Below are positions 9,292 to 25,458 of a stretch of 64,000 nt of DNA, in pieces. Source of the stretch: an uncultured Gallionellaceae bacterium (GTDB taxonomy: Bacteria; Pseudomonadota; Gammaproteobacteria; Burkholderiales; Gallionellaceae). Position numbers and translations under genes: made by a program. Below the pieces are notes generated by a model. That model was not told the origin of the DNA. It did not search any database and was given only the letters and a program-made list of their open reading frames with translations. The stretch lies in assembly GCA_964571195.1 (NCBI GenBank), contig CAZNAD010000010.1:10029-74028 (forward strand). Reading direction: 5' to 3'. Within the stretch, counting starts at the first letter, position 1; every line of letters begins with the position of its first letter.

Positions 9292-12243
9292 CTACTTACC
9301 CACGCCCACCAACGGGAAGTCGCTCAATCCACCCGGTGCAATACTCACCGGCGTTTGCTGCCCGTGGGTCAAACTTTTCACGCGACCATCCACATAAAAG
9401 TCCAAGCCCTTCACCGTCACCACGCCGCTGTTGTAGGCATCTGCTTTGCCGAACAATCCCTCAACCACCGACTTGGTGAATGCGCCATTGCCCCAACTAT
9501 CATTCTCTTGCGACAACTGTCCTGCTGACGATGCCGTGAACACCACCGCGCCATTTTCAGCCGAAGCCAAGTCGTTCACAAAGCCGCTGGTGCGCACATT
9601 GCCCATCACTCCGCCGGAATAGCAGGTGTCGATAAAGAACACCGTATGCCCCGGCAAGTTGGCGAAGGTTTGCTTGATCTCGCTTTGCGATACACCCGTG
9701 CGAGCCAGCTTGTCCGGGTCGGCGTTGTGCGGCATGAAGTAATACCCGCCCAGCTTGTCATTCATCCCGTGACCGGCTACGAACATCACCCCCACATCAT
9801 TCGCGGAGACATTTTGTTTGAGCCAATCTAAACCATCCAGCACATCATCCTTGGTAGCCTTGTCATCGGTGAGCAGCTTCACCGTAACATCGCTATACAG
9901 TTTTCCTTTCTGCCCCTTCAGCGAATTCACAAAGTCATTCGCATCTTTTGATGCCAGCCCTAAGTTATATTCCGGGTTGGCGTATTTCGACACGCCCACC
10001 GCCAGTACATACAGCTTGGGTTTGCTGGAAGCAGTTTGTTTAGCTGTGGCTTTGTTGCCAGCAAGCTGCAAACGCAAAATGGCGGGCGTGGAAGTGCTGA
10101 ATTTATTTTCTGCGAAGAGTTGAATTTCTACTTCCTGTGATGAAGATGCGGCATCACCTGAAGAGGCTTGTCCGGTTCTTTTCAATGCCCGTGTGGCGGA
10201 TTGAATTCCAGCCTCGGGAATGGTTACTTCGATTTCTTTCACATCATCAGATGTATTGTCAGCCACTCGCTTCAACGCTCGCGTATCCGATTGCAGCAGC
10301 CCATTCACCCGCACCCTCATCGCGGTGACGGGGGCATCGGCAGCAGTGCGTACATGGTAGCGCACCGTGATCTTGCCGGATTGAACGGTAGTGTCTGATG
10401 ACGGAGAAACAATCTCCACCACCGGCGGCAACACTTGCGCAATGGCAGTGACGGCTTGTGTGCGACGACCAGATGCTTCATTGGCGAGGCGCACAGCTTC
10501 CGCTTCGTCTTGCGTTTCCAGCACTTTGCTCAAGACATCGGGGCGATAGAAGCGGTCACGGAAACGCGAAGCGGGGAAAAAATCTGCTTCATGGTCTTTG
10601 CCGTTGTTGACATGCCAGCCGATCAAGCCTTCCGCACCGGGCGAGGCGTCGTAATAACCGGAAGGCGTCCACAGCACCCAGCGCTTTTTATCCGCATGGG
10701 GAAAGAAGGCGAGTTGCTCCACCCCATCGGAAGCGCGATGCCAGCGTATCGTGCCGTCGCCGTAAGCCGCCACCACCCAGCGCCCGTCGGCGGACACGTT
10801 CACCGCCCATACCGAGCCGCCCGGCGAGGGCATTTGCCAGCGTTGGTTGCCGTTGCGGTCGAACAGGCGCAAGAGCCATGTCGTCCCTAGCGCAAAGCCG
10901 CTGCCGTCCGGCAACAGGGCGAGACTGCGCGAGGTTTCATATTGCTCAAGCGAGAGAGGCGTGCCGTTGAGCTTGGGCGCGGTGGTTTCTTCCCAGTCGG
11001 TGACGTTGATGCCCGCTGCACTCAGGAGGGGCGGCTGTAGCCCGGCGGTGTCGTCGGGCAGTATTTGTTTGCGCAGGCTGTCGAATACGACGGGAGCTTT
11101 GCCATTCCATTCATAGCCGAAGCGCACCTGTGCGCCATCGGCGGACAGGGTGAAACCTTCATACATGGCGCGAAAATCCGCCAGTACTGGCGCATGGCGC
11201 AACAACATTTGCCCCTGTCTATCCACCACGCCCCAAGAGGGTTCACCTGCGCCAAACGCCAAGCGCCCGCCGGGCAGAGGCAACAAGTCCATCACCGTAC
11301 TATCCGCCACCGGAATATCCTGCACCGTGTTGCCCTGCCAGTGGCGGATGTAATCTCGTGATTCCCCGTCGAATGGCTTTTGCGCCTGCCCCGCCGCCGC
11401 CAGCCCCTGCGCTGTCCAGGCGACGCTGCTCAACTTTGCATTCACCCCTGCCGTATCGGGCGCATCAAGCAAAGACAAATCCGCCGCGTCCAGCAGGTTC
11501 ACCGCCGGGGTGTCATCAAACCCCAGCGCGATGCGCTTGCCGTCGGGCGAGAAGCGCGCGGCATAGGGCCGCGTCCCCCCCGGTGCGCTGCGCTTGGCGA
11601 GCAGGTTTAAGGTGTTGCCGTCCCAGCGATACAGGCGCACAAAGCCGTCAAAACTGGTGCTGACCAGCCTGCCGTCGCGGCTGAACTGCACCGAGTAGCT
11701 GTCGCTGCCGTAGTCCGTGTCTTGTGCCAGCAGGCGACCCTCGGCCACGGAGAACAGGCGGATGCCATTATTACCATGCAAACTCGCCGCCAGCGTGCGC
11801 CCATCCGGGGCGTAGGCCAGATGGTGAATCACATTGGGCAAGCCGCTGAGGCGGCGCAGCAAACGCCCACTGGCGCGGTCGAGCAGGAAGATGGAATCGC
11901 CCGCTTCGCCCACTTGCGTCCATCCCCCCAGCGCCACGGTTTTGCCGTCAGGCGATAACGCTACCGCATACAGCTTGCCTTCGTCACCGCTACCGATGGG
12001 AATGCGCAAGGTGTTGAGCAAGCGCCCGTCGCGCAAGTTCCACACCTTGGCAGTTTTGTCGTGGGATGCCGTCACCAGATAGCGCCCTTGTGCATCGCTG
12101 GCAATGCGCCCAATCTTCGCCGTGTGTTCGCCGGGGTCGATGCGCAATATGGGTTCGCTGGGTGGTTCGCCAGCATGGGCGGCAACGGATGAGGCCAGCG
12201 CGGTGATGGCAAATAGAAATTTGAAGTGTGAAATTAAGGGCAT
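9292..12243 (-). CDS. Exported WD40-repeat / Ig-like linker / caspase (peptidase C14) fusion protein, copy A
   Basis: 983 aa. Signal peptide (..VAAHA|GE). WD40-like repeats (SHDKTAKVWNL, YGDGTIRWHRA). C-terminal caspase dyad motifs VMFVAGHGMND and VFFIDTCYSGG. Confidence 0.85.
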   Translation of the reverse strand: MPLISHFKFLFAITALASSVAAHAGEPPSEPILRIDPGEHTAKIGRIASDAQGRYLVTASHDKTAKVWNLRDGRLLNTLRIPIGSGDEGKLYAVALSPDGKTVALGGWTQVGEAGDSIFLLDRASGRLLRRLSGLPNVIHHLAYAPDGRTLAASLHGNNGIRLFSVAEGRLLAQDTDYGSDSYSVQFSRDGRLVSTSFDGFVRLYRWDGNTLNLLAKRSAPGGTRPYAARFSPDGKRIALGFDDTPAVNLLDAADLSLLDAPDTAGVNAKLSSVAWTAQGLAAAGQAQKPFDGESRDYIRHWQGNTVQDIPVADSTVMDLLPLPGGRLAFGAGEPSWGVVDRQGQMLLRHAPVLADFRAMYEGFTLSADGAQVRFGYEWNGKAPVVFDSLRKQILPDDTAGLQPPLLSAAGINVTDWEETTAPKLNGTPLSLEQYETSRSLALLPDGSGFALGTTWLLRLFDRNGNQRWQMPSPGGSVWAVNVSADGRWVVAAYGDGTIRWHRASDGVEQLAFFPHADKKRWVLWTPSGYYDASPGAEGLIGWHVNNGKDHEADFFPASRFRDRFYRPDVLSKVLETQDEAEAVRLANEASGRRTQAVTAIAQVLPPVVEIVSPSSDTTVQSGKITVRYHVRTAADAPVTAMRVRVNGLLQSDTRALKRVADNTSDDVKEIEVTIPEAGIQSATRALKRTGQASSGDAASSSQEVEIQLFAENKFSTSTPAILRLQLAGNKATAKQTASSKPKLYVLAVGVSKYANPEYNLGLASKDANDFVNSLKGQKGKLYSDVTVKLLTDDKATKDDVLDGLDWLKQNVSANDVGVMFVAGHGMNDKLGGYYFMPHNADPDKLARTGVSQSEIKQTFANLPGHTVFFIDTCYSGGVMGNVRTSGFVNDLASAENGAVVFTASSAGQLSQENDSWGNGAFTKSVVEGLFGKADAYNSGVVTVKGLDFYVDGRVKSLTHGQQTPVSIAPGGLSDFPLVGVGK

Positions 12244-12489: not shown

Positions 12490-13083
12490 TTATTGCCCCG
12501 CAGTATGGCCAATCAGCTGTTTAAGACCTTCTTCATTACCACTTAGAAAAATCTTTCCTGCTTCAAGAAAGTGACGCAGACATTCATCCCCTGCGATGTA
12601 TTTTTTTCTGAATTCGTTTGCCGAGTACAACATTGGCTTGATCTCTCGTCGCAACATCGCTTTCGCCGGATACAAAACCTTGTCGATTTCAACTGATGGA
12701 AAGTTGCTCACTACGAGTACATGAATATCCCCCGCCGCAGACTTTGCTTCTTTTTCTGAAATAAACGCCAAGCAAATTCGATCTGAGCAGGGCTCCAATA
12801 TTTCGCGAAGCACATCCACTGTGCCCAGTGTTTTTCGCAACAAATCGCGCAATTCCACGAAGATCGGGCAGCGTGTGTTGGCAGAATAATCTATCTGCCG
12901 CCCCAGTTCTTTTCTTATCAGTAGCCCATATTCCGCCAGTTTCGCCAATTCCTTATGGGCGACACTGAGCGAAATTCCTGTCATGCGTGATATCTCTGCC
13001 GAACTGAAAGACTCGTCAGAACGCAAGAGCAATACCCCGAGCGCGCGGGAACGTGAACTACCTAATAATAACGAAGCCAGCAT
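12490..13083 (-). CDS. Winged-helix (ArsR-like) plus degenerate nucleotidyltransferase-like domain protein
   Basis: N-terminal wHTH (FSSAEISRMTGISLSVAHKELAKLAEYGLL). The C-terminal AAGDIHVLVV resembles the minimal NTase G-x-D-x-D motif but with His in place of the second Asp. ATG at 13083 (the ORF track uses TTG at 13095). Confidence 0.55.
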   Translation of the reverse strand: MLASLLLGSSRSRALGVLLLRSDESFSSAEISRMTGISLSVAHKELAKLAEYGLLIRKELGRQIDYSANTRCPIFVELRDLLRKTLGTVDVLREILEPCSDRICLAFISEKEAKSAAGDIHVLVVSNFPSVEIDKVLYPAKAMLRREIKPMLYSANEFRKKYIAGDECLRHFLEAGKIFLSGNEEGLKQLIGHTAGQ

Positions 13084-13085
13084 AT

Positions 13086-13217
13086 TTACAGACAAACCTT
13101 TTTCCGTTTTTTGTCACGAGGCTCTTCATACTTGCAGTACACGTAGTAAATCACCCATGCCAGCAATGACAGCGTAGCGATATTTAATCCGATAAGAACC
13201 CAATTCAATAAATTCAT
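13086..13217 (-). CDS. Hypothetical 43-aa single-TM peptide abutting the wHTH gene
   Basis: Hand translation gives MNLLNWVLIGLNIATLSLLAWVIYYVYCKYEEPRDKKRKKVCL. Its TAA stop lies 2 nt before the ATG of the next gene (TAAATATG). Confidence 0.3.
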   Translation of the reverse strand: MNLLNWVLIGLNIATLSLLAWVIYYVYCKYEEPRDKKRKKVCL

Positions 13218-13484
13218 GATGGCCTGGCAAATTTTCCCCGGTTACATATGGTAAAAAAATGCTGAGTTATTCAACTTTATCGCCCCAGAGGCGGGAATCT
13301 TTAGCGCTGATTCCAAGGGCATGCCCCACCCATACAAGATGCACTTTATATGCATCAGACACCGGCCACATCATCCAAATGGGGTATATCCCCAAATTTC
13401 GCTGCTGAATTCGGCTATGATTCCGCCGCGATTTGTTCGACAGACACCATCAGAGTGTCGCTTTAAGTCAAAACAGGGGGAGAT

Positions 13485-14333
13485 ATGGGGCAACAGGAAG
13501 TCACTACAGGGAGCTTGTCGGTTCGTCTGCCAGACGGTCGGCGTTTGGGGTATGCGGAATATGGTGTGCCTCATGGCAGGCCGGTGCTGTTTTTTCATGG
13601 CGCGCCGGGTTCGGCTTATGTGCATGCGGATATGGCTGAGATCGCGGCACAACGTGGCGTGCGGCTGATCGGAGTAGATCGCCCCGGATATGGGGTGTCG
13701 GATGTACATCAGAGCCACAGCTTTTTAAGCTGGGCGGACGATGTTGCCGCATTCACAGCTGCACTGGGCATTGCCCGGTTTTCTATCATCGGGTTTTCAG
13801 CGGGGACGCCGTATGCACTTGCCTGTGCATTTAAATTCCCGGATAGGGTCAAACAGGTTGTCTTGGTTGGTGCAATTGTCCCCGGTGTCACTGAGGGTGT
13901 GCCGCCGCTGGTCTGCGGACTTTATGCGCTGGCTCAAACCAATCCAGATGAGTTGAGAAAAACCTTTTCCGCAGTTGCGCCATCGGCATCCGCATTGCTC
14001 GGGGTGGTGTTGTCCAATGTCGCGGAAGTGGACAAGCAAATATTGCATGACCGGACTTCGGATTTCGAGCTGGAGTATGCGCGGACATTGCAGGTCGGCA
14101 TTGAAGGGGTTGCTTCGGACTATATGTTACTTGCCAACGACCAAGGCTTTTCCGTGGATGAAATCGATACCGAGGTTCATTTGTTTAGCGGAACTGTCGA
14201 TCAAAACACCCCGCCAGCCATGACGGAATTCTTCGCATCGCGACTTCCCCGCAGTCGGGTTCATCGCTTACAAGATAAGGGGCATTATATTTTGTACACG
14301 CACTGGGATGAGATATTGAAGTGTTTGAGCTAA
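13485..14333 (+). CDS. Alpha/beta-fold hydrolase
   Basis: 282 aa with HGAPGS (oxyanion region) and a nucleophile elbow GFSAG. AGGGGGAG RBS. Confidence 0.8.
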   Translation: MGQQEVTTGSLSVRLPDGRRLGYAEYGVPHGRPVLFFHGAPGSAYVHADMAEIAAQRGVRLIGVDRPGYGVSDVHQSHSFLSWADDVAAFTAALGIARFSIIGFSAGTPYALACAFKFPDRVKQVVLVGAIVPGVTEGVPPLVCGLYALAQTNPDELRKTFSAVAPSASALLGVVLSNVAEVDKQILHDRTSDFELEYARTLQVGIEGVASDYMLLANDQGFSVDEIDTEVHLFSGTVDQNTPPAMTEFFASRLPRSRVHRLQDKGHYILYTHWDEILKCLS

Positions 14334-14338
14334 GTGCG

Positions 14339-15663: not shown

Positions 15664-15801
15664 CTATGGAAGGTCTGATTAAGTCCGTTCGTGGTGAGTG
15701 TTTCCCGTTCGCTCCCTCGATACACCGCGCAAGCGCGGCACTTGGGACGAACGGGAAACTTATCGAACCATGGTTTTCGGACTTAATCAGACCTTCCCTA
15801 T
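15664..15801. repeat. MITE-like long palindromic element with perfect 20-bp terminal inverted repeats
   Basis: GGAAGGTCTGATTAAGTCCG (15668-15687) is the exact reverse complement of 15778-15797. Inner 12-bp arms are GTTTCCCGTTCG (15700-15711) and CGAACGGGAAAC (15748-15759). Central palindrome is CCGCGCAAGCGCGG (15725-15738). Flanked by CTAT on both sides. Confidence 0.7.
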
Positions 15802-17489
15802 CCATTTATGCTCTTCTTGCCTTGCAACAGGGCTTGTGCGAATAATTGCTGCCATCCTTCGGCGGCAAGCTCGCCCCCGTGTAGGGTGGTCTGATGCACC
15901 ACATAATTGACTGCGTCGCTGTTTTTAATAAGCGAGCGATGCAGCCAAATTCTGGTTTCATTGATGAGCTGTTCGATCTCTTCCGGGGTGAAGGTCTCCG
16001 ATTCGGATAACCAGGAAACGGCAATCGTTGTATCAAATAATCCCCAGATTCCTTTTTGATCTCCATTCATCATTTCTACGCTCTTGGGAATAGAGCCGGT
16101 CTTTTTGAGTTTGGTGCACAAGCCACCGAGCATGTCGTTGGAAATGAGCTTCTGCTTGTTGTCGAAGCGAATCAATAACAGTGTTGCATGCGCCTCTTCG
16201 TTGCGTGATAACGTGGATTGCACCACGTTCTGTTCCAGCACCTTGGCAGTTGATGCGGCATAAAGTCGTGCGAGGGAGAAATAGGCGATGCCCAACATCA
16301 CTGGACCGGCCAGATTGATGTAGGTATTGGTGAAGTTGATGCAGGCGAATGAAAAAACGATCAGGATGGTTTGGGATAGTCCGAACATGCTGTCGATCTT
16401 GTCGCGCCCCTTGTCGCGATAGAACGCCCATGCGGTGAGCCAGATGATGGAAAGTGATAACAGCAGGAACCAGATTCTGCCTTCCGGGAAACGCAACGAG
16501 TCGCCGTGTTTGAGATTATCTATGGCGGTGGCCAGTATCTCGACACCGGGGAAGGTCTTGGCCATCGGGGTGGCGCTGGCATCGTACAGATTCGGGGCAG
16601 TCGAGCCGATGATGACGATCTTGTCTTTGAATTCGTTCTTGTCGCGCTCGCTATTTTTGTCGCGCAAGCTGGAATAGGCGTCTGCAAAACTGATGTGTCG
16701 GTAACTAAACGGTTGGCCGCGCCAATTTAACAGGATGTGTTCGGTGGCGGGTTCGGGCCAGTTGAATTCGCGCGCGATCCGCGCCGCCATGGAGGGCAGC
16801 CGCCAGCCGTATCCCTCGAAGTAAACGGGATAGCTGCGCAGCACACCATCCGAGTCGAGGATCACATTCTGTGTACCCAGTCGTCCTCCGGCCAATGCGG
16901 ATGGGAAGTAGGGCAGAACCATGTTGATGGCGGCATCTTCTTCGGTCGTTTCATCGGGGACGCGGGTTGCACCGGGGATTTGCGCGATTTTGATTTGCCG
17001 CAGGGTTTCGCTGGAAGAATCGAGAAACAACATCGGGAAGAAGGTGTTGCTGGTTTTTGCGATGCTGGCATCAAATGCGGCATCACTCTTAGGGTTGAAT
17101 ACATCGGCATCGCTGAACAGCACATCGAATACAACCGCTTTGGGTAGGTCTTCTTCTAGCCGCGTTACAAAGTCGCCGATCACAGAGCGCGGCCACGGCC
17201 AGCGACCGTAAGTTTTGGACATCGCTGTCAGGCTGGCTTCGTCGATGTCAATAATGACGATATCGGGGTCGGGCTGGGGCGGTGCCAGCCGGTAGCGCAC
17301 CATCAAATCGAAAGCCGCCGTGCGGATGTCGCTGGTGATGTGCAAAAAGCCGGTATCCAGCAGCGTAAATAGCGTGAATACGATAGCCAGGTACACGTAG
17401 AAATTACGCTTCCATTTGCGCGCCAGAAAATGGGTGAGATTCGCGCTGGCGAGACGTATTCGGATAAGTGCGAGGGGTTTTAGTTTCAC
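15798..17489 (-). CDS. CHASE2-domain membrane sensor with a short atypical cytoplasmic C-terminal domain
   Basis: 563 aa. N-terminal TM helix, then about 300 aa periplasmic region with CHASE2-like motifs (IVIIDIDEASL, GRWPWPR, GVLR), then 3 TM helices, then about 150 aa tail with no kinase, GGDEF or complete cyclase motifs. Confidence 0.7.
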   Translation of the reverse strand: MKLKPLALIRIRLASANLTHFLARKWKRNFYVYLAIVFTLFTLLDTGFLHITSDIRTAAFDLMVRYRLAPPQPDPDIVIIDIDEASLTAMSKTYGRWPWPRSVIGDFVTRLEEDLPKAVVFDVLFSDADVFNPKSDAAFDASIAKTSNTFFPMLFLDSSSETLRQIKIAQIPGATRVPDETTEEDAAINMVLPYFPSALAGGRLGTQNVILDSDGVLRSYPVYFEGYGWRLPSMAARIAREFNWPEPATEHILLNWRGQPFSYRHISFADAYSSLRDKNSERDKNEFKDKIVIIGSTAPNLYDASATPMAKTFPGVEILATAIDNLKHGDSLRFPEGRIWFLLLSLSIIWLTAWAFYRDKGRDKIDSMFGLSQTILIVFSFACINFTNTYINLAGPVMLGIAYFSLARLYAASTAKVLEQNVVQSTLSRNEEAHATLLLIRFDNKQKLISNDMLGGLCTKLKKTGSIPKSVEMMNGDQKGIWGLFDTTIAVSWLSESETFTPEEIEQLINETRIWLHRSLIKNSDAVNYVVHQTTLHGGELAAEGWQQLFAQALLQGKKSING

Positions 17490-17535: not shown

Positions 17536-18150
17536 TTATATGCCTAAAGACATGAGCAAATATACATGATCGACTGACAATTTTGGACTTAACTGGGTGT
17601 CAGCCTCATAACGTTCAAATCCCAAACGAAATAAAGGTTGGTTCGCATTTGTGGTGTGGAATGATACGCCGCTTCCCCAGATCAATGAATTTGAACCCGC
17701 GTAACTTTCTCCTCCCGTGCAGGTGGTGCAAGAGATCAAGGTGTAAAGCCCATTGACGGTGCCAAGCTTGCCAAACACTCGCCAGCTATCACTAACTGGG
17801 ATATATCCAATCGCGGACAGGCTGGTGCTGAGCAAAGATGCGCTGGCAATTTGGGTGTTTCTGCTGTTGTTGTCGGAATAAATTTTCCAGTCGGTATAAG
17901 CGACGCCCGTTTCGAGGGCGAGGTATTTGTTGGGCTGGTAGCCCAAGATTCCCGCGTACGAATTTCCCGGCAAATAGGTGACCGTATTGCGTGTTGGGAA
18001 AGTGCCGCCTAATGCAATGCCGCCATAAAGCGATGTGCCAGCCGCTACGTCGGCTGAAATCGCCAGCATAAAGGCGGCGGCAACAGCGGAGTTTTGTACC
18101 CGCAGACGGAGAAAGAGGCTGATTTTATTCAAGATATGGGGCGTATGCAC
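17536..18150 (-). CDS. Small outer-membrane beta-barrel protein (OmpW/OmpA-barrel-like)
   Basis: 204 aa. Signal peptide (..ADVAAG). Alternating amphipathic Gly/Tyr-rich strands (LYGGIALGG, ALETGVAYTDWKIY). Confidence 0.65.
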   Translation of the reverse strand: MHTPHILNKISLFLRLRVQNSAVAAAFMLAISADVAAGTSLYGGIALGGTFPTRNTVTYLPGNSYAGILGYQPNKYLALETGVAYTDWKIYSDNNSRNTQIASASLLSTSLSAIGYIPVSDSWRVFGKLGTVNGLYTLISCTTCTGGESYAGSNSLIWGSGVSFHTTNANQPLFRLGFERYEADTQLSPKLSVDHVYLLMSLGI

Positions 18151-18465
18151 GATAGGGATGGCTCAAAAATCAATCTGTTATCTAATGTTTGATGTCTGGA
18201 TTCGGCTCAGGGCGTACTTTGGCACAAACTCGCCGACGAGACATACCCCATTTGGATGATGCGGCACGGTGCGACGTGCAGGTATAGTTGCCGCTGTGAT
18301 TTCAGCACTCAGCGGGCTTGCCGGGGAAGCGCTTGTCAAGTTTCGGGGCGTGGGGTAAATTGCGTTCGCGCTGTATCTACGGGGGGCCGTTGCGTAACGG
18401 TGCGGGAATCAGGATTCATTTCGAGGTTTTATTTTATTAACTTTAGAGTGTCGGGAGTGTTAGAA

Positions 18466-19071
18466 ATGTCAAAAATCACCAAAGCATTGTTGTTGTCCGT
18501 TGTTGCATTCGGCCTCGCTGCCTGTGAGACGAATCCACCTAAAGAAGCACCAAAAGCCAAGGTGGCTGATTGCACCTTCCCAAGTTCACCTGATGTGGCT
18601 GCACCGGACTGGGTCTGTACTGGTTCGGCAGAAGGCGTGGAAGTGAGTGCGGTAGGTTCGGAGAAGATCGTTTCCGGCGAAACTGATTTTGCGCAGACCA
18701 TGGCCATTGCTTCGGCGCGCCTCAAGCTGGCAGGGCAAATGAAGACACACGTGACCGGTATGGTTAAGAAATATATGGAGACCACTGGAGCGGGCAACAG
18801 CGCTACCGTAGATAAGGTGAACACTTCGGTCACCAAGCAGATTACCAACGAAACATTGGTTGGCAGCAAGATGTTCAAGAGCCGCACATCGCCGGACGGC
18901 ACTGTTTACGTGTTGGTCGGTCTGGATGAAAAAGCAGTTCAGAAAAATACTGAAACAGCCGTCAAGACCAGCATGGGTAACGATCAGGCGCTGTGGCAGC
19001 AGTTCAAGGCCAGCAAGGCTCAGGATGAATTGGCGGCCGATATCGCCAAGCAGAAATTAGACGCAAAATAA
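18466..19071 (+). CDS. LPP20-like lipoprotein
   Basis: ATG at 18466 (MSKITKALLLSVVAFGLAAC: lipobox LAAC). Paralogue of 8749-9264. The ORF-track N-terminal extension from 18256 is Cys/Arg-rich and looks non-coding. Confidence 0.75.
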   Translation: MSKITKALLLSVVAFGLAACETNPPKEAPKAKVADCTFPSSPDVAAPDWVCTGSAEGVEVSAVGSEKIVSGETDFAQTMAIASARLKLAGQMKTHVTGMVKKYMETTGAGNSATVDKVNTSVTKQITNETLVGSKMFKSRTSPDGTVYVLVGLDEKAVQKNTETAVKTSMGNDQALWQQFKASKAQDELAADIAKQKLDAK

Positions 19072-19190: not shown

Positions 19191-19952
19191 ATGTACACGA
19201 CAATCAAAGCAATACTTTATTTGCTGATATCGCTCTCGGCGAGCGCATGTTTTGCTGCGGAGCGTATCGAGATCGTAAAATCAGATGGTGAGGTGACGGT
19301 CAGTAAATCCGCCGGTGCCCAATCTAAGGTTGTGTCAGCCGGAAAAGCTTTGCCTTCGGTCAATACGTTATCTACCGGAGCTGGCGGACGTGCGGTCGTG
19401 CGGGTGGGAAACACGGGTTACCTCGTGCTGGAAAAAAACAGCTCGGTCGAGATCAATGCGGCCAATACCTCGGCCAGTTTCTTCCGGCAACTGACCGGCA
19501 AGATTTATTACGCGGTGAATACCCTCAAGGGGAAATCGCACACGCTTGAGGTGAGAACCAAGGTTGCTACCATCGGTGTGCGCGGCACACGCTTTCTGGT
19601 GACGGACGATACGGAACGTAACGAGATCGGTATGCGCAAGGGAGAGGTCAATGTTGCCACCACGGGAGAGGAATTCGAGGTGCATAAACAGTTGGCACAA
19701 GAAGAGTGGGAGGCGATGAAGCAAGAGGCGCAGGCTGCGATCAATAAGGAAAAGTCCGATTTCGAGACGTATAAGGAAAACACGCAGAAGGAGTTCGTCG
19801 AATACAAGCGCGAACTTCTCTTGGGGGCGGATCGGATGTTGGCGTTTGATGGCAAGCGTGTGGATGATCGTCCCTTGGGTGGTGACACCAAGGCAGATAT
19901 GGAAAGCCTGGAAAACTATGCTGGGCAGTGGTTGAATAAAGTTAAAGATTAA
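19191..19952 (+). CDS. Exported FecR-domain protein with a coiled-coil C-terminus
   Basis: Signal peptide (..SACFAA). FecR-like motifs (GRAVVRVGNTGYLVLEKNSSVEI; ATIGVRGTRFLV). Charged helical tail. Confidence 0.75.
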   Translation: MYTTIKAILYLLISLSASACFAAERIEIVKSDGEVTVSKSAGAQSKVVSAGKALPSVNTLSTGAGGRAVVRVGNTGYLVLEKNSSVEINAANTSASFFRQLTGKIYYAVNTLKGKSHTLEVRTKVATIGVRGTRFLVTDDTERNEIGMRKGEVNVATTGEEFEVHKQLAQEEWEAMKQEAQAAINKEKSDFETYKENTQKEFVEYKRELLLGADRMLAFDGKRVDDRPLGGDTKADMESLENYAGQWLNKVKD

Positions 19953-19958: not shown

Positions 19959-20363
19959 ATGGAAATGAAGCGTATTGGTATTTGCCTGATCATGTTGTTA
20001 AGCGTTCTGGTGTCGGCATGTGCGACTCCTGCGGCACCCGTCGCGGCTAATGCAAGACCGGCATGGATAGACAATCCGGGAGATGGTGTATCGGCTTCGG
20101 CGGGTATGCATGTACGCGGCAAAGCCATGCAGGAAGAGTTGGCGATCTCGCGTGCCAGAGTCGAGTTCGCAAAACGCTTTGGCGTGACGATAGAGTCCGT
20201 CGGGATCTATACCAAGAATATGGCAGGTGGAAAGTCAACAACGACCGGCAGTCAGGTCTCGCAAGAGCAAAGTAAACAAACTGATGTGAAAGCCATGGTG
20301 AAAGCAAAATGGCACGATCAGGAGGCTGATGTGCTGTACGTTTGGCTGGTTCCCAGTAATTAA
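19959..20363 (+). CDS. LPP20-like lipoprotein
   Basis: Lipobox LVSAC. PAWIDNPGDG...GKAMQEELAISRARVEFAKR resembles LPP20-family sequences. 7-nt gap after the FecR gene. Confidence 0.6.
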   Translation: MEMKRIGICLIMLLSVLVSACATPAAPVAANARPAWIDNPGDGVSASAGMHVRGKAMQEELAISRARVEFAKRFGVTIESVGIYTKNMAGGKSTTTGSQVSQEQSKQTDVKAMVKAKWHDQEADVLYVWLVPSN

Positions 20364-20449
20364 ATCTTAACGGCCTGTATGGGGGGCAGCGTTGGAGGTG
20401 CCCCGCTGTCGAAATGGTTTATCGGATTTTGTTTGGAGAGGAATGGCAT

Positions 20450-21955
20450 ATGGATGTGACGAGGGGTCGGAAAGCGGCAAGGTTATTCTCGGTGGCGGGG
20501 CTACTGTGTTTGCCTTTGAACGGTGCGTTTGCGCAGGATGACTTCGAGGCATACCGCCGCCAGCAAGCTCAGGGGGCGCAACAGGAAAAAGCCAGATTCG
20601 ATGTTTACAAAGAGCAGCAAGACCGCGAATTTGCCGGATTCCTGAAAAGCCAGTGGAGCGAATTCGAAACCTTTCAGGGCAAGGTGCGGATCAAAGAGCC
20701 CAAGCCCAAGCAACCCCCGGTCGCTTTGCCTGTTGTGGTTGCGCCTACCGCCAAGCCTGTTCCAGTCACGCCTCCCGTTGCTGTGGCACCGTTACTCGCG
20801 CCGGTGACCCCTCCGCCACCTCCGGCGCAACCCAAGCCCGTTACCGTTGGAGCCGATCAGTTAGATTTGATGTTCTACGGTAATGCAGTGGGATTTGCGT
20901 TCGATCCGCAATGGAAAACCTATCGCTTAACCGGCGGAGCCAAACCGGAAACCATCAGTGAGTTCTGGACCACGATGAGCGGCAGTAAATACGAGGCGAC
21001 ACTTCAGGCGATCAATGCGGCGCGCAAAGAGTTAAAGCTGGATGATTGGGGGTATGTCACATTGTGGCGCGATGTGGTGCGCGCGCTGCAACCGGAACGC
21101 CAGTCCGAGCAAAATCTGTTGCTTTGGTTCTTTCTGGTCAAGTCGGGATATGACGTGCGCCTGGGGTATTACGAGAAAGATGTGTTCCTTTTTGTAGCCA
21201 TCAAACAGCCTGTGTATTCGACGAAATACACCAGAGTTAACGATCAAACTTATTATGCGGCGCTGGCTGCCGATCACGGCAATGGCATCCGGGCTTTCTA
21301 CAGCTATAAATCAGACTATCCGGCAAAGCTGAAAGCGCTGGATATAAAATCCGCCGCCACCGGATTTACCAAGACGGTTTCCGCGCAACGCGAACTCGCT
21401 TTCGACTACAAGGGGAAAACGATCAAGCTCTCCGTTCCCTATGATCGCCGTTTGGTCGAATATATGAGCACGTTTCCCCAATCCGAATTCGAGTTGTATT
21501 TTGATACGGACGGTAGCTCCGTGTTGAAAGGCGCGTTACTCGCTGAATTGAAAAAATATACGGCTACGATGAGCGAAGAAGAGGCGGTGAATTTCCTGCT
21601 TGCCTTCGTCCAGAAAGCCTTTGCCTACAAGACCGATGATGATCAATTCGGTGCCGAAAAATACTTCTTCGTTGAAGAGTCGCTGCACTTCCCTTACAAC
21701 GACTGCGAAGACCGCTCTGTGCTGTTTGCTTGGCTGGTACACGAACTGGTCGGGATCAAAGTGGTCGGCTTGCTTTATCCGGGGCACATGACCACGGCTG
21801 TCGAATTAAAACAGGTGAACGACGAATTTTTCACCGTGACCTACCAAAACAAGCGGCTGGTCGTCGCCGACCCAACGTATATCGGGGCATCAGTCGGCAT
21901 GGCGATGCCTTCTTATGCCAAATACAAACCTAAGCGGGTGGTGGAGATTCAGTGA
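20450..21955 (+). CDS. Exported protein with a Pro-rich linker and a C-terminal transglutaminase-like (Cys-His-Asp) core
   Basis: Signal peptide (..NGAFAQ). PKPKQPPVALPVVVAPTAKPVPVTPP linker. Putative triad context YNDCEDRS ... YPGHMTTAV ... VVADPT. Confidence 0.6.
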   Translation: MDVTRGRKAARLFSVAGLLCLPLNGAFAQDDFEAYRRQQAQGAQQEKARFDVYKEQQDREFAGFLKSQWSEFETFQGKVRIKEPKPKQPPVALPVVVAPTAKPVPVTPPVAVAPLLAPVTPPPPPAQPKPVTVGADQLDLMFYGNAVGFAFDPQWKTYRLTGGAKPETISEFWTTMSGSKYEATLQAINAARKELKLDDWGYVTLWRDVVRALQPERQSEQNLLLWFFLVKSGYDVRLGYYEKDVFLFVAIKQPVYSTKYTRVNDQTYYAALAADHGNGIRAFYSYKSDYPAKLKALDIKSAATGFTKTVSAQRELAFDYKGKTIKLSVPYDRRLVEYMSTFPQSEFELYFDTDGSSVLKGALLAELKKYTATMSEEEAVNFLLAFVQKAFAYKTDDDQFGAEKYFFVEESLHFPYNDCEDRSVLFAWLVHELVGIKVVGLLYPGHMTTAVELKQVNDEFFTVTYQNKRLVVADPTYIGASVGMAMPSYAKYKPKRVVEIQ

Positions 21956-22020
21956 GCCTGTATTCGCTGACAGGGGTGTTCCCCGCCCGCTTGAGAAACG
22001 GCCTGACTATGGACGCTGTA

Positions 22021-22398
22021 ATGCGCATCTCAAAATTCTTTATGATTGCTGCGCTGCTGGTGACTGTGGCGGCCTGCGACAAGAAAGTCGAAGTCACGGA
22101 AGCTGCGCCCGCTGGCAAGGTCGAGGCGCAACAGGCTTTGCCGGCTGTGCAGCCGAAGCATGATCTGCCGTCGTCGGAGCAGCCGAAGCATGCTGACGAG
22201 TCGCCGGGAAAAAAGGCCGGAAACGAGGTTAACGGCGGGGAGCATAAACCAGTCGCCAAACCGGAAAGCGCAGAACAGGTCTTGGAGAGCGTCATTCCCA
22301 ATAGGCAGGAGCCGGAGGATGCGCGTGTCGCCGAACAAAAGCGGCGCGGCAAAAAGGCGGAAGATGAGATGTTGCAGGAGATTGACAAATATAAGTGA
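22021..22398 (+). CDS. Low-complexity (Lys/Glu/Pro-rich) lipoprotein
   Basis: ATG at 22021 (MRISKFFMIAALLVTVAAC: lipobox VAAC). The rest is predicted disordered. Confidence 0.55.
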   Translation: MRISKFFMIAALLVTVAACDKKVEVTEAAPAGKVEAQQALPAVQPKHDLPSSEQPKHADESPGKKAGNEVNGGEHKPVAKPESAEQVLESVIPNRQEPEDARVAEQKRRGKKAEDEMLQEIDKYK

Positions 22399-22524: not shown

Positions 22525-25458
22525 ATGAACTACTTCACTCTATTGAAACGTGTTGCTCCGATGAGCGCAACCGCGTTTTTTCTGGGAGGTCTCTTTCTCT
22601 GCGGTTTACAACCGGTTTACGCGGGAGACCCGCCCGCCGAGCCTATGTTGCGCTTCGATCTCGGCGAACACACAGGTGTGCTTCGCCGCATTGCAGTGGA
22701 CGATGAAGGCCGCTTTGCTGTGACATCTTCAGATGACAAGACGGCGCGGGTGTGGAGTTTGCCGGACGGGCGTTTGCTTTCTACCTTGCGCGTTCCCCTC
22801 AGTGGCGGTAACGAGGGCAAACTGTTTGCCGTGGCGATGTCGCCCGATGGCAATACCGTTGCCTTGGGTGGGTGGACTGGTTGGGACTACGAGAATTCGA
22901 TGTCTATTTTTCTTTTTGATCGAGCCAGTGGTCGCATGTTGCGCCGCCTGACCGGTTTGCCGGAGGTGATCAATCACCTCGCGTTTTCACCCGATGGCCG
23001 CCTGCTGGCGGCGTGCATGGGGAGTCAAAGTGGTATTCGCCTGTTTTCCGTAAGTACCGGACGCTTGTTGGCGGAAGATGCGGACTATGGTGCCAGCAGC
23101 TATTCTGTGCATTTCAGTCGCGACGGGCGTTTGCTGGCCAGCAGTTACGATGGTTATCTGCGCATGTACCGCTGGAATGGACAAACATTGAGCCTGCTGG
23201 CCAAACGTACCGTTCCCGGCGGGAGTCAGCCGGAAGGGGCACGATTTTCACCGGATGGTACACGCATAGCCGTGGGATTCAGTGACTCGACAGCGGTCAA
23301 TGTGTTGGATGGGGATGATCTCAGTTTCTTGTATGCGCCGGATACTGCGGGCGTAGGTGCGAAATTAAGCAGTGTGGCGTGGTCTGCCGATGGTCAAACG
23401 CTGTACGCAGGCGGGCAGGCGCAAGCTAAATATGATGAAGGGTGGCGACAATATATCCGCCGCTATGAGCAGGCTGGGCGCGGGGCAGCACAGAACATCC
23501 CGGTGGTCACTGACAGCATTATGGCGCTGGTTCCCTTGCCCGATGGTGGTTTGGTGTTCGGATCGGCGGCCTCTTCATGGGGCATGCTGGATGCTCAAGG
23601 CCGGCGTGTATTGCTTCATACGCCAGTGATTCCCGATTATCGGAATCTATTGGAAGGATTCACCTTGTCTGCCGATGGTACGCAGGTGCGTTTCGGTTAT
23701 GAATGGCCAGGCAAGTCTCCTGTGGTGCTCGATAGTCGTACCCGCAGCCTGTTGGCGGATGATGTCCCCGGTTTGATCCCCCCTGTGGTCAGTATGCCAG
23801 GTCTGGATGTGACCGGCTGGGAACACACGACCGCTCCCAAGCTCAACGGAACTGCACTCCCGCTCCAGTCATATGAGTTCTCGAGCAGCATGGCGTTCGC
23901 GCCGGATGGCAGTGGTTTGGCGCTGGGGTCAAGTTGGAATTTGCGCTTTTTCGACCGTAATGGCAATAAGCGCTGGGGACATCCAACCCCCGGTTCCGCG
24001 TGGGCTGTGAATATATCTCAGGACGGACGTTGGGTTGTGGCAGCCTATGGCGACGGCACGATACGCTGGCATCGAGCCTCCGATGGTGTCGAGCAGATGG
24101 CGTTCTTCCCGCATGCGGACAAGAAGCGCTGGGTGATGTGGACACCCTCCGGTTATTACGCTGCATCACCCGGCGCGGAAGACTTGATCGGTTGGCATCT
24201 GAATAACGGCAAAGATCGTGCGGCAGACTTCTTCCCGGCTTCGCGTTTCCGCGAACGTTATTATCGTCCCGATGTGCTGGCGAAAGTCTTTGATACGCAG
24301 GACGAAGCCCAGGCTGTGCAGATGGCGAATGCCGAATCCGGCCGTAGACAGACTGCGATGGCTTCCATCGCGGAGATATTGCCGCCGGTAGTGGAAATCA
24401 TTTCTCCTGTCGCTGACGCTCCTGTCCGGTCGAGCAAAGTCACCGTGCGCTACCGTGTGCGCACGCTGCCCGATGCGCCGGTGACGGGCATCCGTGTTCG
24501 TGTGAACGGACAGTCGGTCAGCGCGGAACGCGCATTAAAACGCAAGGAGGAATCCGGCAACGAAATTCGCGAGGTTGAGGTCGACATCCCGGAACAGGAT
24601 AGCGATATCGCGCTGTTTGCCGAGAACAAGAACGGTATTTCCACGGCCGCATTGTTGCACCTTGAATGGGCGGGTAAAAAAGCTGCTGTCGAAGCGGTGC
24701 AATTCAAACCCAAACTGTATGTACTGGCGGTGGGGGTGTCGAAATACAAGAACCCGGACTACAACCTGGGATTGGCCGCAAAAGATGCAAAAGACTTCGC
24801 TGCCGTGCTGCAAAAACAGCAGGGTAGACTGTATGGCGAGGTCGTGGTCAAGCTGCTTACCGATAACGGTGCGACACGTGATGATGTGGTGGACGGATTG
24901 GAGTGGTTGAAGCAGCAAGTGACTACCCGCGACGTGGGCATGATGTTCATTGCCGGTCACGGCATGAACGACAACCAGGGCAAATATTTCTTCTTGCCGC
25001 ACAATGCCGATCCAGACAAGTTATTGCGTACCGGTGTGGCGCAGACCGACATTCGCGATACGCTGAATTCGCTAGCGGGCAAGGCCGTATTCTTTGTGGA
25101 CACCTGTCATGCGGGTAATGCGTTGGGCACCTCCAAGACCCGCGCCATTGGCGGTACGGCAGATGCCTTCATCAACGAACTGGGTTCGGCGGAGAACGGT
25201 GTGGTGGTGTTTTCATCTTCTACCGGAAAACAGTTATCGCAGGAGAATCCTGCCTGGGGTAACGGCGCTTTCACCAAAGCGGTGGTCGAGGGCTTGAGTG
25301 GCAAGGCGGACTTTACCAAGAATGGCAAAATCACTCATAAGGGGTTGGATTATTACGTTACCGAGCGCGTGAAAGAGCTGACCAAGGGGCAACAGTCTCC
25401 GGTTGCCATCGCACCGAATGGCATCACGGATTTCCCGATCGCGGTGGCAGGGAAATAA
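22525..25458 (+). CDS. Exported WD40-repeat / Ig-like linker / caspase (peptidase C14) fusion protein, copy B
   Basis: 977 aa. Signal peptide (..QPVYA|GD). 57 of 85 hand-aligned N-terminal residues are identical to copy A. Dyad motifs MMFIAGHGMND and VFFVDTCHAGN. Confidence 0.85.
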   Translation: MNYFTLLKRVAPMSATAFFLGGLFLCGLQPVYAGDPPAEPMLRFDLGEHTGVLRRIAVDDEGRFAVTSSDDKTARVWSLPDGRLLSTLRVPLSGGNEGKLFAVAMSPDGNTVALGGWTGWDYENSMSIFLFDRASGRMLRRLTGLPEVINHLAFSPDGRLLAACMGSQSGIRLFSVSTGRLLAEDADYGASSYSVHFSRDGRLLASSYDGYLRMYRWNGQTLSLLAKRTVPGGSQPEGARFSPDGTRIAVGFSDSTAVNVLDGDDLSFLYAPDTAGVGAKLSSVAWSADGQTLYAGGQAQAKYDEGWRQYIRRYEQAGRGAAQNIPVVTDSIMALVPLPDGGLVFGSAASSWGMLDAQGRRVLLHTPVIPDYRNLLEGFTLSADGTQVRFGYEWPGKSPVVLDSRTRSLLADDVPGLIPPVVSMPGLDVTGWEHTTAPKLNGTALPLQSYEFSSSMAFAPDGSGLALGSSWNLRFFDRNGNKRWGHPTPGSAWAVNISQDGRWVVAAYGDGTIRWHRASDGVEQMAFFPHADKKRWVMWTPSGYYAASPGAEDLIGWHLNNGKDRAADFFPASRFRERYYRPDVLAKVFDTQDEAQAVQMANAESGRRQTAMASIAEILPPVVEIISPVADAPVRSSKVTVRYRVRTLPDAPVTGIRVRVNGQSVSAERALKRKEESGNEIREVEVDIPEQDSDIALFAENKNGISTAALLHLEWAGKKAAVEAVQFKPKLYVLAVGVSKYKNPDYNLGLAAKDAKDFAAVLQKQQGRLYGEVVVKLLTDNGATRDDVVDGLEWLKQQVTTRDVGMMFIAGHGMNDNQGKYFFLPHNADPDKLLRTGVAQTDIRDTLNSLAGKAVFFVDTCHAGNALGTSKTRAIGGTADAFINELGSAENGVVVFSSSTGKQLSQENPAWGNGAFTKAVVEGLSGKADFTKNGKITHKGLDYYVTERVKELTKGQQSPVAIAPNGITDFPIAVAGK

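What the first reader, a model, noticed from the sequence alone, without database searches (positions are those of the whole stretch)
9292..25458. Mirror-image layout: two old caspase paralogues transcribed outward, each followed by an LPP20-like gene
Copy A (minus strand) is followed after 27 nt by the LPP20-like gene at 8749-9264. Copy B (plus strand) is followed after 39 nt by the LPP20-like/DUF4384-like gene at 25498-26928. The pairs bracket the rest of the island.

In a hand alignment, 57 of the first 85 mature residues are identical. At DNA level the copies differ at many synonymous positions, and the longest identical run I saw is about 26 nt (GGCGACGGCACGATACGCTGGCATCG). This points to an ancient duplication under purifying selection, not recent gene conversion.

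One block is almost invariant: DGRWVVAAYGDGTIRWHRASDGVEQ-x-AFFPHADKKRWV-x-WTPSGYY. It is a candidate functional surface. The recurrent caspase-LPP20 pairing suggests a cognate partner, which could be a substrate, inhibitor or anchor.
Basis: seen in the sequence. Interest (0 to 1): 0.65.

Follow-up and report, generated by a model that had tools for sequence, protein, structure and literature searches.

The report
Paired exported WD40-caspases with LPP20-fold neighbours
Two old gene copies encode exported caspase-like proteases, each followed by a small envelope protein of the LPP20 fold; the sequence observation is correct, but this pairing and the mirror-image layout are confined to one bacterial lineage and are not a rule for the protease family.

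Summary
Genes 9292-12243(-) and 22525-25458(+) encode 983- and 977-aa paralogues. BLASTP gives 61% identity; a MAFFT alignment gives 64% aa and 65% nt identity. Synonymous sites are saturated (dS about 2.1) and dN/dS is about 0.14. The 26-nt identical run and the 57/85 count both check out.

Each protein has a signal peptide, two WD40 propellers, a helical linker, an Ig-like domain and a C14 caspase domain with an invariant His/Cys dyad. The family is large: more than 4,200 hits.

It lies in the last blades of propeller 2.

Both downstream genes have the LPP20 fold, but they are not equivalent. The 171-aa gene is a paralogue of a third LPP20 gene in the cluster. The 476-aa gene is a multidomain protein (LPP20, FlgO-like region, DUF4384) resembling HP1454.

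Caspase-LPP20 adjacency recurs only in Gallionellaceae-like relatives. There the layout is tandem or convergent, not mirrored. Across the family, the commoner neighbours are CHASE2 sensors, FecR, TPR proteins and DUF4384.

My best reading is a cell-envelope protease module in which the LPP20/DUF4384 proteins act as optional docking or scaffold partners. This is inferred, not shown. Interest is moderate.

The parts
9292..12243 (-). Caspase paralogue A, 983 aa. Signal peptide (aa 1-24), double WD40 propeller (about aa 26-557), helical linker, Ig-like domain (about 605-740), C14 caspase domain (741-983). His825 is at nt 9769-9771 and Cys874 at nt 9622-9624.
   Evidence: ORF; translation; Pfam WD40 72.5 bits and Peptidase_C14 50.4 bits, both above cut-off; coordinates.
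22525..25458 (+). Caspase paralogue B, 977 aa, with the same architecture. His812 is at nt 24958-24960 and Cys861 at nt 25105-25107.
   Evidence: AlphaFold2 model: pLDDT 88.6, pTM 0.85. Foldseek top matches are double propellers. H812 and C861 are invariant in 61 sequences.
10534..10788 (-). Family-wide most conserved block in copy A (aa 486-570): the last WD40 blades of propeller 2, extending to the YRPD motif.
24022..24276 (+). The same conserved block in copy B (aa 500-584). It contains the 26-nt identical run.
8749..9264 (-). s171: exported LPP20-fold protein with no lipobox, co-directional with caspase A. The likely true start is 9252 (167 aa).
   Evidence: BLASTP E 2e-25 to the LPP20 gene at 18256-19071. 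7/12 family members hit Pfam LPP20. No terminator-like site in the 27-nt gap. Shine-Dalgarno context.
25498..26928 (+). LPP476: exported multidomain protein with an LPP20 domain (aa 20-113), helical hairpin, FlgO/LpoB-like alpha/beta module and a DUF4384 beta-sandwich (about aa 336-418). The likely true start is 25510 (472 aa).
   Evidence: Pfam. Family scan: 37/44 hit DUF4384, 28/44 LPP20, 9/44 FlgO. AlphaFold2 pLDDT 87. Foldseek top hit is H. pylori HP1454, E 1.6e-5, followed by TolB and LpoB.
18256..19071 (+). LPP20 lipoprotein. The likely true start is 18467 (201 aa, lipobox LAAC). It is the closest paralogue of s171.
   Evidence: Pfam LPP20 28.2 bits, cut-off 25.9.
19191..19952 (+). Exported FecR-domain protein.
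   Evidence: Pfam FecR E 1.2e-12. FecR fusions occur with LPP476-like (P0149) and unk513-like proteins.
19959..20363 (+). Small lipoprotein (134 aa) of the same LPP20-like family.
   Evidence: Iterated HMM merges it with the s171/LPP271 family; alignment A4.
20414..21955 (+). 513-aa exported protein with an invariant Cys431-His458-Asp486 triad, probably transglutaminase-like.
   Evidence: 2,457 relatives. Invariant columns. 3/31 relatives hit transglutaminase-like Pfam families weakly. The window protein itself has no Pfam or PDB hit.
21952..22398 (+). Low-complexity putative lipoprotein (148 aa) directly upstream of caspase B.
   Evidence: A relative lies between two caspases in L009.
15798..17489 (-). 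CHASE2 membrane sensor (563 aa) with an unassigned C-terminal domain.
   Evidence: Pfam CHASE2 E 6e-53. Relatives are present in 20 of 101 caspase loci.
17536..18150 (-). Small OmpA-like outer-membrane beta-barrel protein, upstream of the CHASE2 gene.
   Evidence: The same OMP + LPP20 pairing sits next to a WD40-caspase in Sterolibacterium, L013.

Best explanation
These are two anciently diverged paralogues of a large, uncharacterised bacterial family of Sec-exported cysteine proteases. Each has a signal peptide, a double WD40 propeller, an Ig-like domain and a C-terminal caspase (C14) domain.

In this Gallionellaceae-type genome the two genes sit in a roughly 19-kb chromosomal cluster of cell-envelope genes between ccoS and fnr. 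The cluster contains four LPP20-fold proteins, a FecR-domain protein, a probable transglutaminase-like Cys-His-Asp protein, a small outer-membrane barrel and a CHASE2 membrane sensor.

Proposed mechanism (inferred, not shown):
- The caspases act in the periplasm or at the inner face of the outer membrane.
- Their propellers select substrates or ligands.
- The LPP20-fold proteins encoded directly downstream serve as accessory docking or scaffold partners. The DUF4384 module of the 476-aa protein is the protease-associated element, supplied here in trans; in other proteins it is fused directly to caspase domains.
- The CHASE2/FecR pair couples the module to transmembrane signalling.

The partners are lineage-specific accessories, not obligate cognate inhibitors or substrates. 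The mirror-image layout results from local rearrangement of what is a tandem operon in a relative.
For: Shown:
- Paralogy, saturated dS and purifying selection.
- A and B clades each have orthologues in other assemblies.
- Domain architecture and a high-confidence model.
- His/Cys dyad invariant in 61 sequences.
- An N-terminal signal-peptide-like segment with a conserved A-x-A before EPP in the family consensus.
- LPP20 fold of both downstream genes.
- No terminator-like site in either short gap.

Association evidence:
- The same gene set (caspase, LPP476, LPP271, FecR, unk134, unk513) recurs in permuted order in L001, L004, L015, L022, L023 and L103.
- More distant relatives sit next to OMP + LPP20 and a caspase-DUF4384 fusion (L013), a CsgG-like lipoprotein plus DUF4384 (L018), and DUF4384 plus a CHASE2-cyclase (L019).
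- CHASE2 is present in 20 of 101 loci.
- LPP20-family proteins (FlgP, Lpp20, HP1454) are envelope proteins that interact with themselves or each other; FlgP assembles a disk (PMC11756786).
- Partner type does not follow caspase clade, which fits generic docking better than a co-evolving inhibitor.
Against: No interaction was tested; no multimer prediction was available.

Only 2-3 of 34 immediate downstream neighbours in diverse family members are LPP20-like. The LPP476 family returned 57 hits, against more than 4,200 for the caspase. Most family members therefore work without such a partner.

LPP476 homologues exist with no caspase within 10 kb.

Neither downstream protein has a lipobox, so any outer-membrane tethering would have to be indirect.

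Export is inferred from sequence features only. No dedicated signal-peptide predictor was run.
Confidence: 0.4

Rival explanations
1. The LPP20-fold or DUF4384 proteins are substrates. The caspase cleaves them, probably after a basic residue, to mature them or release a fragment that acts on the CHASE2/FecR sensor.
For: In type III-E CRISPR systems, Csx30, the target of the caspase-like protease Csx29, has a C-terminal domain that in one group is DUF4384. LPP476 has a disordered K/R-rich hairpin at aa 55-86 and an invariant Arg450. The caspase keeps the D-x-C-H motif and Asp754/Asp859. From my recollection of metacaspase structures, these line an acidic S1 pocket.
Against: DUF4384 is commonly fused in cis to caspase domains, which fits a stable module better than a consumable substrate. 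The K/R-rich loop is not conserved in sequence. No cleavage data exist.
Confidence: 0.2
2. There is no direct partnership. The adjacency only reflects co-regulation of envelope proteins within a larger LPP20/FecR/transglutaminase-like cluster that happens to host caspase genes in this lineage.
For: The LPP20/FecR/unk134/unk513 set occurs with a different, WD40-less caspase in L103. LPP476 occurs with no caspase in L101 and L102. The unk513 family alone has 2,457 relatives. Gene order is fluid. Most caspase homologues lack LPP20 neighbours.
Against: Some caspase accompanies the LPP cluster in nearly all Gallionellaceae-type loci, and also in Sterolibacterium. Caspase-DUF4384 fusions argue for a functional link.
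Confidence: 0.25
3. The downstream proteins are dedicated inhibitors or immunity proteins that protect the producer's own envelope from its protease, as in co-transcribed protease-inhibitor pairs such as staphopain-staphostatin (recalled from memory).
For: A small exported protein lies immediately downstream and is probably co-transcribed. The partners diverge faster than the caspases: 39-42% versus 75% identity in L005.
Against: Most family members have no such neighbour. Partner type does not track caspase clade. The LPP20 fold is not a known protease-inhibitor fold. The two 'inhibitors' would be structurally very different proteins.
Confidence: 0.1
4. This is a cytoplasmic caspase-based anti-phage or programmed-cell-death system.
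For: There is a generic PADLOC 'caspase' hit (E about 1e-11 to 1e-12). The NCBIfam model 'caspase, EACC1-associated type' scores below its cut-off. A PDC-M05A-like gene lies next to caspase A.
Against: Both caspases and nearly all neighbours carry signal peptides, lipoboxes or transmembrane segments. There is no NTPase or EACC1 partner. The NCBIfam scores of 73-77 are far below the cut-off of 140. No other PADLOC component hit was found.
Confidence: 0.03

Closest known systems
Prokaryotic caspase homologues (metacaspases/orthocaspases, Peptidase_C14) with WD40 accessory domains, including multi-caspase operons (Asplund-Samuelsson et al. 2012, PMC3501461)
   Same: The C14 fold and His-Cys dyad are present. 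WD40 is the commonest accessory domain in that survey (10.9%). Up to three caspase genes per operon, FGE-sulfatase variants and CHASE2 links are all reported there, and all are seen here.
   Different: Here the propellers are N-terminal and double, the protein is exported, and an Ig-like domain precedes a C-terminal caspase. The operonic link to LPP20-fold proteins did not appear in the papers I searched.
H. pylori lpp20 operon proteins Lpp20 (HP1456) and HP1454, and the related FlgP
   Same: LPP476 is closest in fold to HP1454 (Foldseek E 1.6e-5). HP1454 is itself a secreted multidomain protein whose first domain resembles Lpp20 and which is encoded beside Lpp20. Several LPP20-fold genes are likewise clustered here.
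   Different: The TM-scores are low (0.21/0.35), so only some domains match. No flagellar genes are nearby. The C-terminal DUF4384 and the caspase, FecR and CHASE2 neighbours have no counterpart in H. pylori.
CHASE2-FecR signalling operons (for example the Burkholderia BiofilmReg operon, PMC5192318)
   Same: An exported FecR-domain protein is encoded with a CHASE2 membrane sensor. The same pairing follows WD40-caspases in L078, L079, L090 and L098, and both genes are in this cluster.
   Different: The window's CHASE2 protein has no recognisable kinase or cyclase output. The FecR and CHASE2 genes are not adjacent here. No caspases are part of BiofilmReg.
Caspase-DUF4384 fusion proteins, and Csx30 of type III-E CRISPR
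   Same: DUF4384 is recurrently attached to protease domains and forms the C-terminal domain of one group of Csx30, a target of a caspase-like protease. A C14-DUF4384 fusion lies next to a WD40-caspase in L013.
   Different: Here DUF4384 is on a separate exported protein fused to LPP20 modules. There is no CRISPR context.

Membership tests
Peptidase C14 (caspase / metacaspase / orthocaspase) | Match to the Pfam Peptidase_C14 model above the gathering score | tested here: met
   50.4 bits (A) and 54.9 bits (B), cut-off 21.4.
Peptidase C14 (caspase / metacaspase / orthocaspase) | Catalytic His-Cys dyad | tested here: met
   AGHG His and DTC Cys are present in both copies. H812 and C861 are invariant in 61 homologues.
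Peptidase C14 (caspase / metacaspase / orthocaspase) | Acidic S1 pocket and cleavage after Arg/Lys (metacaspase/orthocaspase type) | tested here: inconclusive
   Asp754 and Asp859 (D-x-C-H motif) are invariant. Their equivalence to the metacaspase S1 aspartates rests on motif resemblance recalled from memory. The sequence match to TbMCA2 is insignificant (E 0.73).
NCBIfam NF047832, caspase of the EACC1-associated type | Score above the curated cut-off | tested here: not met
   72.8 and 76.8 bits, cut-off 140. No EACC1 partner is in the cluster.
WD40 beta-propeller proteins | WD40 repeats forming closed propellers | tested here: met
   Pfam WD40 72.5 and 84.8 bits, cut-off 27. The AlphaFold2 model shows all-beta blades from aa 40-571. 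Foldseek top hits are two-propeller proteins 2ymu and 1nr0.
LPP20 (PF02169): 476-aa downstream gene | Match above the gathering score | tested here: met
   29.8 bits, cut-off 25.9. 28/44 family members match.
LPP20 (PF02169): 171-aa downstream gene | Match to the Pfam model | tested here: not met
   No LPP20 hit even at E<=1. Homology is indirect: BLASTP E 2e-25 to LPP271, which scores 28.2 against a cut-off of 25.9. 7/12 family members hit LPP20, best E 1.2e-11.
LPP20 lipoproteins | Lipobox cysteine for outer-membrane anchoring | tested here: not met
   The signal peptides of s171 and LPP476 end in SFA-A with no lipobox Cys. LPP271 (LAAC) and unk134 (VSAC) do have one.
DUF4384 (PF14326) | Match above the gathering score | tested here: inconclusive
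   The window protein scores 19.0 bits, below the cut-off of 27. 37/44 family members match at E<=0.01, best E 1e-6.
HP1454-like secreted proteins | Overall fold similarity | tested here: inconclusive
   Foldseek E 1.6e-5, probability 1.0, but TM-scores 0.21/0.35 and rmsd 15 Angstrom. This is similarity at the level of individual domains only.
Mobile genomic island | Integrase, tRNA target or flanking direct repeats | tested here: not met
   No tRNA. No flanking direct repeats. No integrase among the annotated genes. The cluster lies between ccoS (8329-8571) and fnr.
Cognate two-gene cassette (caspase plus a specific LPP20 partner) | Adjacency conserved across the family, with partner type tracking caspase clade | tested here: not met
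   2/34 LPP20 and 3/34 DUF4384 among downstream neighbours. A B-type caspase is followed by the s171 type in L015. Adjacency holds only in the Gallionellaceae-like subclade.

The most novel reading that the evidence does not exclude
The cluster encodes an undescribed cell-envelope sensing cascade built on caspases. In this reading the double WD40 propeller detects a periplasmic ligand or intruder, as WD40 does in Apaf-1-type proteins. LPP20/DUF4384 scaffolds hold the exported caspase at the outer membrane. Proteolysis then signals through FecR and CHASE2 to the cytoplasm. The roughly 4,000-member exported WD40-caspase family would be its core component.
Probability: 0.1. Interest if true: 0.75.

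Novelty: new variant of a known kind. Interest (0 to 1): 0.4.

Why it matters
Bacterial caspase homologues are numerous, but almost none has a known substrate or role. This family is large, exported and very well conserved. Its most constrained part is a propeller blade, not the active site.

The recurrent neighbours found here (CHASE2, FecR, DUF4384, LPP20/CsgG-like proteins and a Cys-His-Asp protein family with about 2,500 relatives) give a concrete, testable shortlist of partners for an envelope protease whose function is unknown. They would also suggest a candidate input for CHASE2 sensors, whose ligands are not known.

The specific mirror-image layout itself carries little significance.

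Tried and rejected
- Direct comparison of the two downstream proteins showed no similarity. The profile-profile comparison gave E 0.11 at the expected position. They are not duplicates of one cassette.
- Recent gene conversion is rejected: dS is saturated in every 60-codon window, including the one holding the 26-nt run, and the run is only marginally unusual (P about 0.016).
- A mobile island is rejected: no tRNA, integrase or flanking repeats.
- A defence system is disfavoured: there is only a generic PADLOC caspase hit, and the NCBIfam EACC1-type caspase score is below cut-off.
- The full-length Foldseek search of the caspase model was swamped by WD40 propellers and gave nothing on the caspase domain. 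A sequence search of the caspase domain against PDB found nothing significant.
- I tried to join contigs L006 and L009, which come from the same assembly, to prove a convergent A/s171 arrangement. There is no overlap, and the 99 nt upstream of the s171 orthologue hold a hairpin rather than a caspase 3' end. Only 'B, then LPP476, then s171 on the opposite strand' can be stated for that genome.
- P0002 could not be located in the contig index.
- The window's unk513 protein, the unassigned C-terminal domain of the CHASE2 protein and unk251 gave no informative Pfam hit. unk513 also had no PDB sequence match.
- The shared TRAL(K/I)(R/K) motif in the caspase Ig-domain loop and the LPP476 C-terminal helix was considered as a cleavage motif. 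By rough estimate, a shared 4-mer between proteins of these lengths is expected by chance, so it is not used as evidence.
Full report
**Observation**

BLASTP aligns them end to end at 61% identity.

A MAFFT-guided codon alignment gives 64% amino-acid and 65% nucleotide identity. Identity by codon position is 72%, 80% and 43%. pS is 0.70, so dS is about 2.1 and saturated. dN is 0.28, giving dN/dS of about 0.14. Every 60-codon window shows saturated synonymous change.

57 of the first 85 mature residues are identical. A simulation that redraws codons from the genes' own usage gives a mean longest run of 16.5 nt, and a run of 26 nt or more in 1.6% of trials. The run is mildly unusual. It sits in the most constrained block and is flanked by saturated synonymous sites, so recent gene conversion can be excluded.

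The repeat finder sees the two genes as diverged inverted repeats, 71-84% complementary.

The stated gaps of 27 and 39 nt are correct. In both downstream genes, however, the first ATG is followed by GGAGAA and a second ATG 12 nt later. The real starts are probably 9252 and 25510. These match the 167- and 472-aa products on record.

**What the caspase genes encode**

Both proteins score above the Pfam cut-offs for WD40 and Peptidase_C14.

An AlphaFold2 model of copy B, built on 61 homologues, is confident (pLDDT 88.6, pTM 0.85). Its layout is:
- a disordered, partly helical N-terminus (aa 1-33)
- all-beta blades from aa 40 to 571
- three helices (572-605)
- a beta-sandwich (622-715)
- an alpha/beta caspase domain (730-977)

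The best Foldseek matches are proteins with two seven-bladed propellers.

The N-termini look like Sec signal peptides. The family consensus keeps an A-x-A motif just before a conserved EPP.EP start of the mature protein. Export is therefore inferred from sequence, not shown.

The catalytic His (AGHG) and Cys (DTC) are invariant in 61 homologues, as are Asp754 and Asp859. From my recollection of metacaspase structures, the D-x-C-H-[SA]-G motif suggests an acidic S1 pocket and cleavage after Arg/Lys. I could not confirm this by alignment to a solved metacaspase (E 0.73).

The family is large. More than 4,200 proteins hit at E<=1e-10, many about 970 aa long with the same architecture. Where named, they are called 'caspase family protein' or 'WD40 repeat protein'.

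**The invariant block**

Across 103 full-length homologues, the stretch from B aa 505 to about 585 has the highest column conservation of the whole protein: 0.82-0.87 majority fraction, against 0.67-0.78 in the caspase domain. Many columns are invariant. In the model these residues are the last strands of the second propeller and the start of the helical linker.

Whether it is a binding surface, a propeller closure or an interface with the caspase domain was not testable, because the tool does not return model coordinates.

**The downstream genes**

The 476-aa gene passes the Pfam LPP20 cut-off and weakly hits DUF4384. Among 44 family members, 37 hit DUF4384, 28 hit LPP20 and 9 hit FlgO.

Its AlphaFold2 model (pLDDT 87) has an N-terminal alpha/beta LPP20 module with a disordered K/R-rich hairpin, a long helical hairpin, a second alpha/beta module and a C-terminal beta-sandwich. 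The best PDB match is H. pylori HP1454 (E 1.6e-5), followed by TolB and LpoB. HP1454 is a secreted three-domain protein encoded in the lpp20 operon, and its first domain resembles Lpp20. LPP20-type proteins such as FlgP self-assemble into envelope-associated disks (PMC11756786).

The 171-aa gene has no Pfam hit of its own. It is nevertheless a clear paralogue (32% identity, E 2e-25) of the LPP20 lipoprotein gene at 18256-19071. The small lipoprotein at 19959-20363 joins the same family on HMM iteration. 7 of the 12 family members hit Pfam LPP20.

The 171- and 476-aa proteins show no direct similarity and only a sub-threshold profile match at the expected place (E 0.11; reciprocal weak HMM hits). 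They are not two copies of one partner, and neither has a lipobox.

**The cluster**

The region lies between ccoS (8329-8571) and fnr/hemN. In order after caspase A, it holds:
- an HTH gene
- an alpha/beta hydrolase
- a 375-aa protein with a weak C-terminal HTH match
- a CHASE2 membrane sensor
- a small OmpA-like barrel
- an LPP20 lipoprotein
- a FecR-domain protein
- a small LPP20-like lipoprotein
- a 513-aa protein
- a low-complexity lipoprotein
- caspase B

The 513-aa protein belongs to a family with 2,457 cluster representatives. It has invariant Cys431, His458 and Asp486, and a few relatives weakly hit transglutaminase-like Pfam models.

There is no tRNA, integrase or flanking direct repeat, so 'island' should not be read as a mobile element. 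No terminator-like hairpin lies in either caspase-partner gap.

**Is the adjacency conserved?**

I collected 101 loci: 12 from genomes, 80 from metagenomes, 8 by exact protein look-up, plus the window itself. Three LPP476-homologue loci (L101-L103) were fetched afterwards.

In Gallionellaceae-type relatives (about 58% identity or more), the same gene set recurs but in shuffled order:
- L001: caspase, LPP476, LPP271, FecR, unk134, unk513.
- L015/L016: A-type caspase, B-type caspase, s171-like, LPP476-like, LPP271-like, unk134-like, all in tandem.
- L006 (93% identical caspase B): B, LPP476, then the s171 orthologue convergent on the other strand.
- L004/L023: the LPP genes lie divergent from the caspases.
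- L103: the LPP/FecR/unk134/unk513 operon plus LPP476 lies beside a short, WD40-less C14 protein.

Farther out:
- A Sterolibacterium WD40-caspase sits between an OMP + LPP20 operon and a C14-DUF4384 fusion.
- One metagenomic relative is followed by a CsgG-like lipoprotein, several more caspases and a DUF4384 protein.
- Another is followed by DUF4384 and a CHASE2-cyclase.

Family-wide, however, the immediate same-strand downstream gene (n = 34, at least 100 aa, not a caspase) hit CHASE2 in 5 cases, TPR in 5, DUF4384 in 3, FecR in 3, LPP20 in 2 and CsgG in 1. Relatives of the window's CHASE2 protein occur in 20 of the 101 loci, often as caspase-CHASE2 or caspase-FecR-CHASE2. Many other neighbours are unrelated genes. 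LPP476 homologues also occur without any nearby caspase.

A neighbour-joining tree puts the A and B copies in sister clades, each with orthologues in other assemblies. The partner type does not follow the clade.

**Interpretation**

The duplication is old and both copies are maintained.

The pairing with LPP20-fold genes is a real, lineage-level association within a larger envelope gene set. It is not a two-gene cognate cassette, and the mirror layout is one of several arrangements.

My preferred mechanism is that the caspases are exported proteases. The LPP20/DUF4384 proteins act as optional docking or scaffold partners near the outer membrane, and CHASE2/FecR provide a signalling connection. 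The arguments are:
- Caspase-DUF4384 fusions exist (literature).
- FecR is found fused to both LPP476-like and unk513-like proteins.
- LPP20-type proteins behave as scaffolds.
- Partner type does not follow caspase clade.

All of this is inference from context.

Substrate, inhibitor and 'co-regulation only' readings remain open and are scored as rivals. A cytoplasmic defence role is unlikely, given the export signals and the sub-threshold EACC1-type score.

**Comparison with the literature**

WD40 is already known as the commonest accessory domain of prokaryotic caspase homologues. Multi-caspase operons, FGE-sulfatase variants and CHASE2 fusions have been described (PMC3501461). DUF4384 is known to accompany caspase and other protease domains. 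FecR-CHASE2 operons are known (PMC5192318).

I found no paper linking LPP20-family proteins to bacterial caspases, and none on caspases in Gallionellaceae. The library searched is limited to open-access papers and preprints.

The finding is therefore a new variant of a known kind: real, tidy and of moderate interest. Its main value is as an entry point to a large family of uncharacterised exported proteases.

Noticed in passing
window 13369-13387 (+) and 18243-18261 (-): An exact 19-nt motif, CATCATCCAAATGGGGTAT, occurs twice where none is expected by chance (26 nt at 92% when extended). Each copy lies about 95 nt upstream of a gene start and in the same orientation to it: the alpha/beta hydrolase at 13485, and the OMP-CHASE2 operon at 18150. 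This is a candidate shared regulator-binding site.
   Followed up: partly
window 12490-13095 (-): The 201-aa HTH protein directly upstream of caspase A matches the PADLOC defence-candidate family PDC-M05A over its full length (E 9.5e-48). It also weakly matches Csa3. By eye it looks like a winged helix plus a nucleotidyltransferase-like domain.
   Followed up: no
window 20414-21955 (+): This 513-aa exported protein belongs to a very large unannotated family (2,457 cluster representatives). It has an invariant Cys-His-Asp triad and weak transglutaminase-like hits in a few relatives. Some relatives are fused to FecR or to beta-propellers.
   Followed up: partly
window 18256-19071 (+): The listed ORF is probably too long. 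An ATG at 18467 preceded by GGGAG gives a 201-aa lipoprotein beginning MSKITKALLLSVVAFGLAAC. This matches the 201-202 aa LPP20 genes in relatives.
   Followed up: partly
window 15665-15687 / 15778-15800: A 23-nt inverted repeat (96% complementary, arms 90 nt apart) lies in the 220-nt gap between the CHASE2 gene and the 375-aa gene.
   Followed up: no
L004 10001-14689; L023; protein P0028: A-clade relatives in Sideroxydans-type assemblies are about 1,560 aa long. They carry a SUMF1/FGE-sulfatase domain, and the precomputed Pfam list for P0028 shows no Peptidase_C14 hit. The conserved propeller platform may carry a different C-terminal domain there.
   Followed up: no
window 9292-12243 (-), aa ~653-700; window 22525-25458 (+), aa 667-673; window 25498-26928 (+), aa 446-455: Copy A carries an internal duplication of a TRALKR-containing segment in a loop of the Ig-like domain. 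Copy B has one RALKRK there, in a low-confidence loop, and Arg669 is at least 90% conserved in the family. LPP476 has an invariant Thr449-Arg450 in KTRALIKK. This may be coincidence.
   Followed up: partly
window 3867-8571 and 28262-30531: The cluster interrupts a typical microaerobic respiration neighbourhood: ccoP, ccoG, ccoH, ccoI and ccoS on one side, and fnr and hemN on the other.
   Followed up: no
L017, L039, L045: In another branch of the family, the WD40-caspase is preceded by a Ser/Thr kinase (fused to TIR in L017) plus a roughly 330-aa protein, and followed by TPR-CHAT proteins. This is a different recurrent context for the same protease.
   Followed up: no
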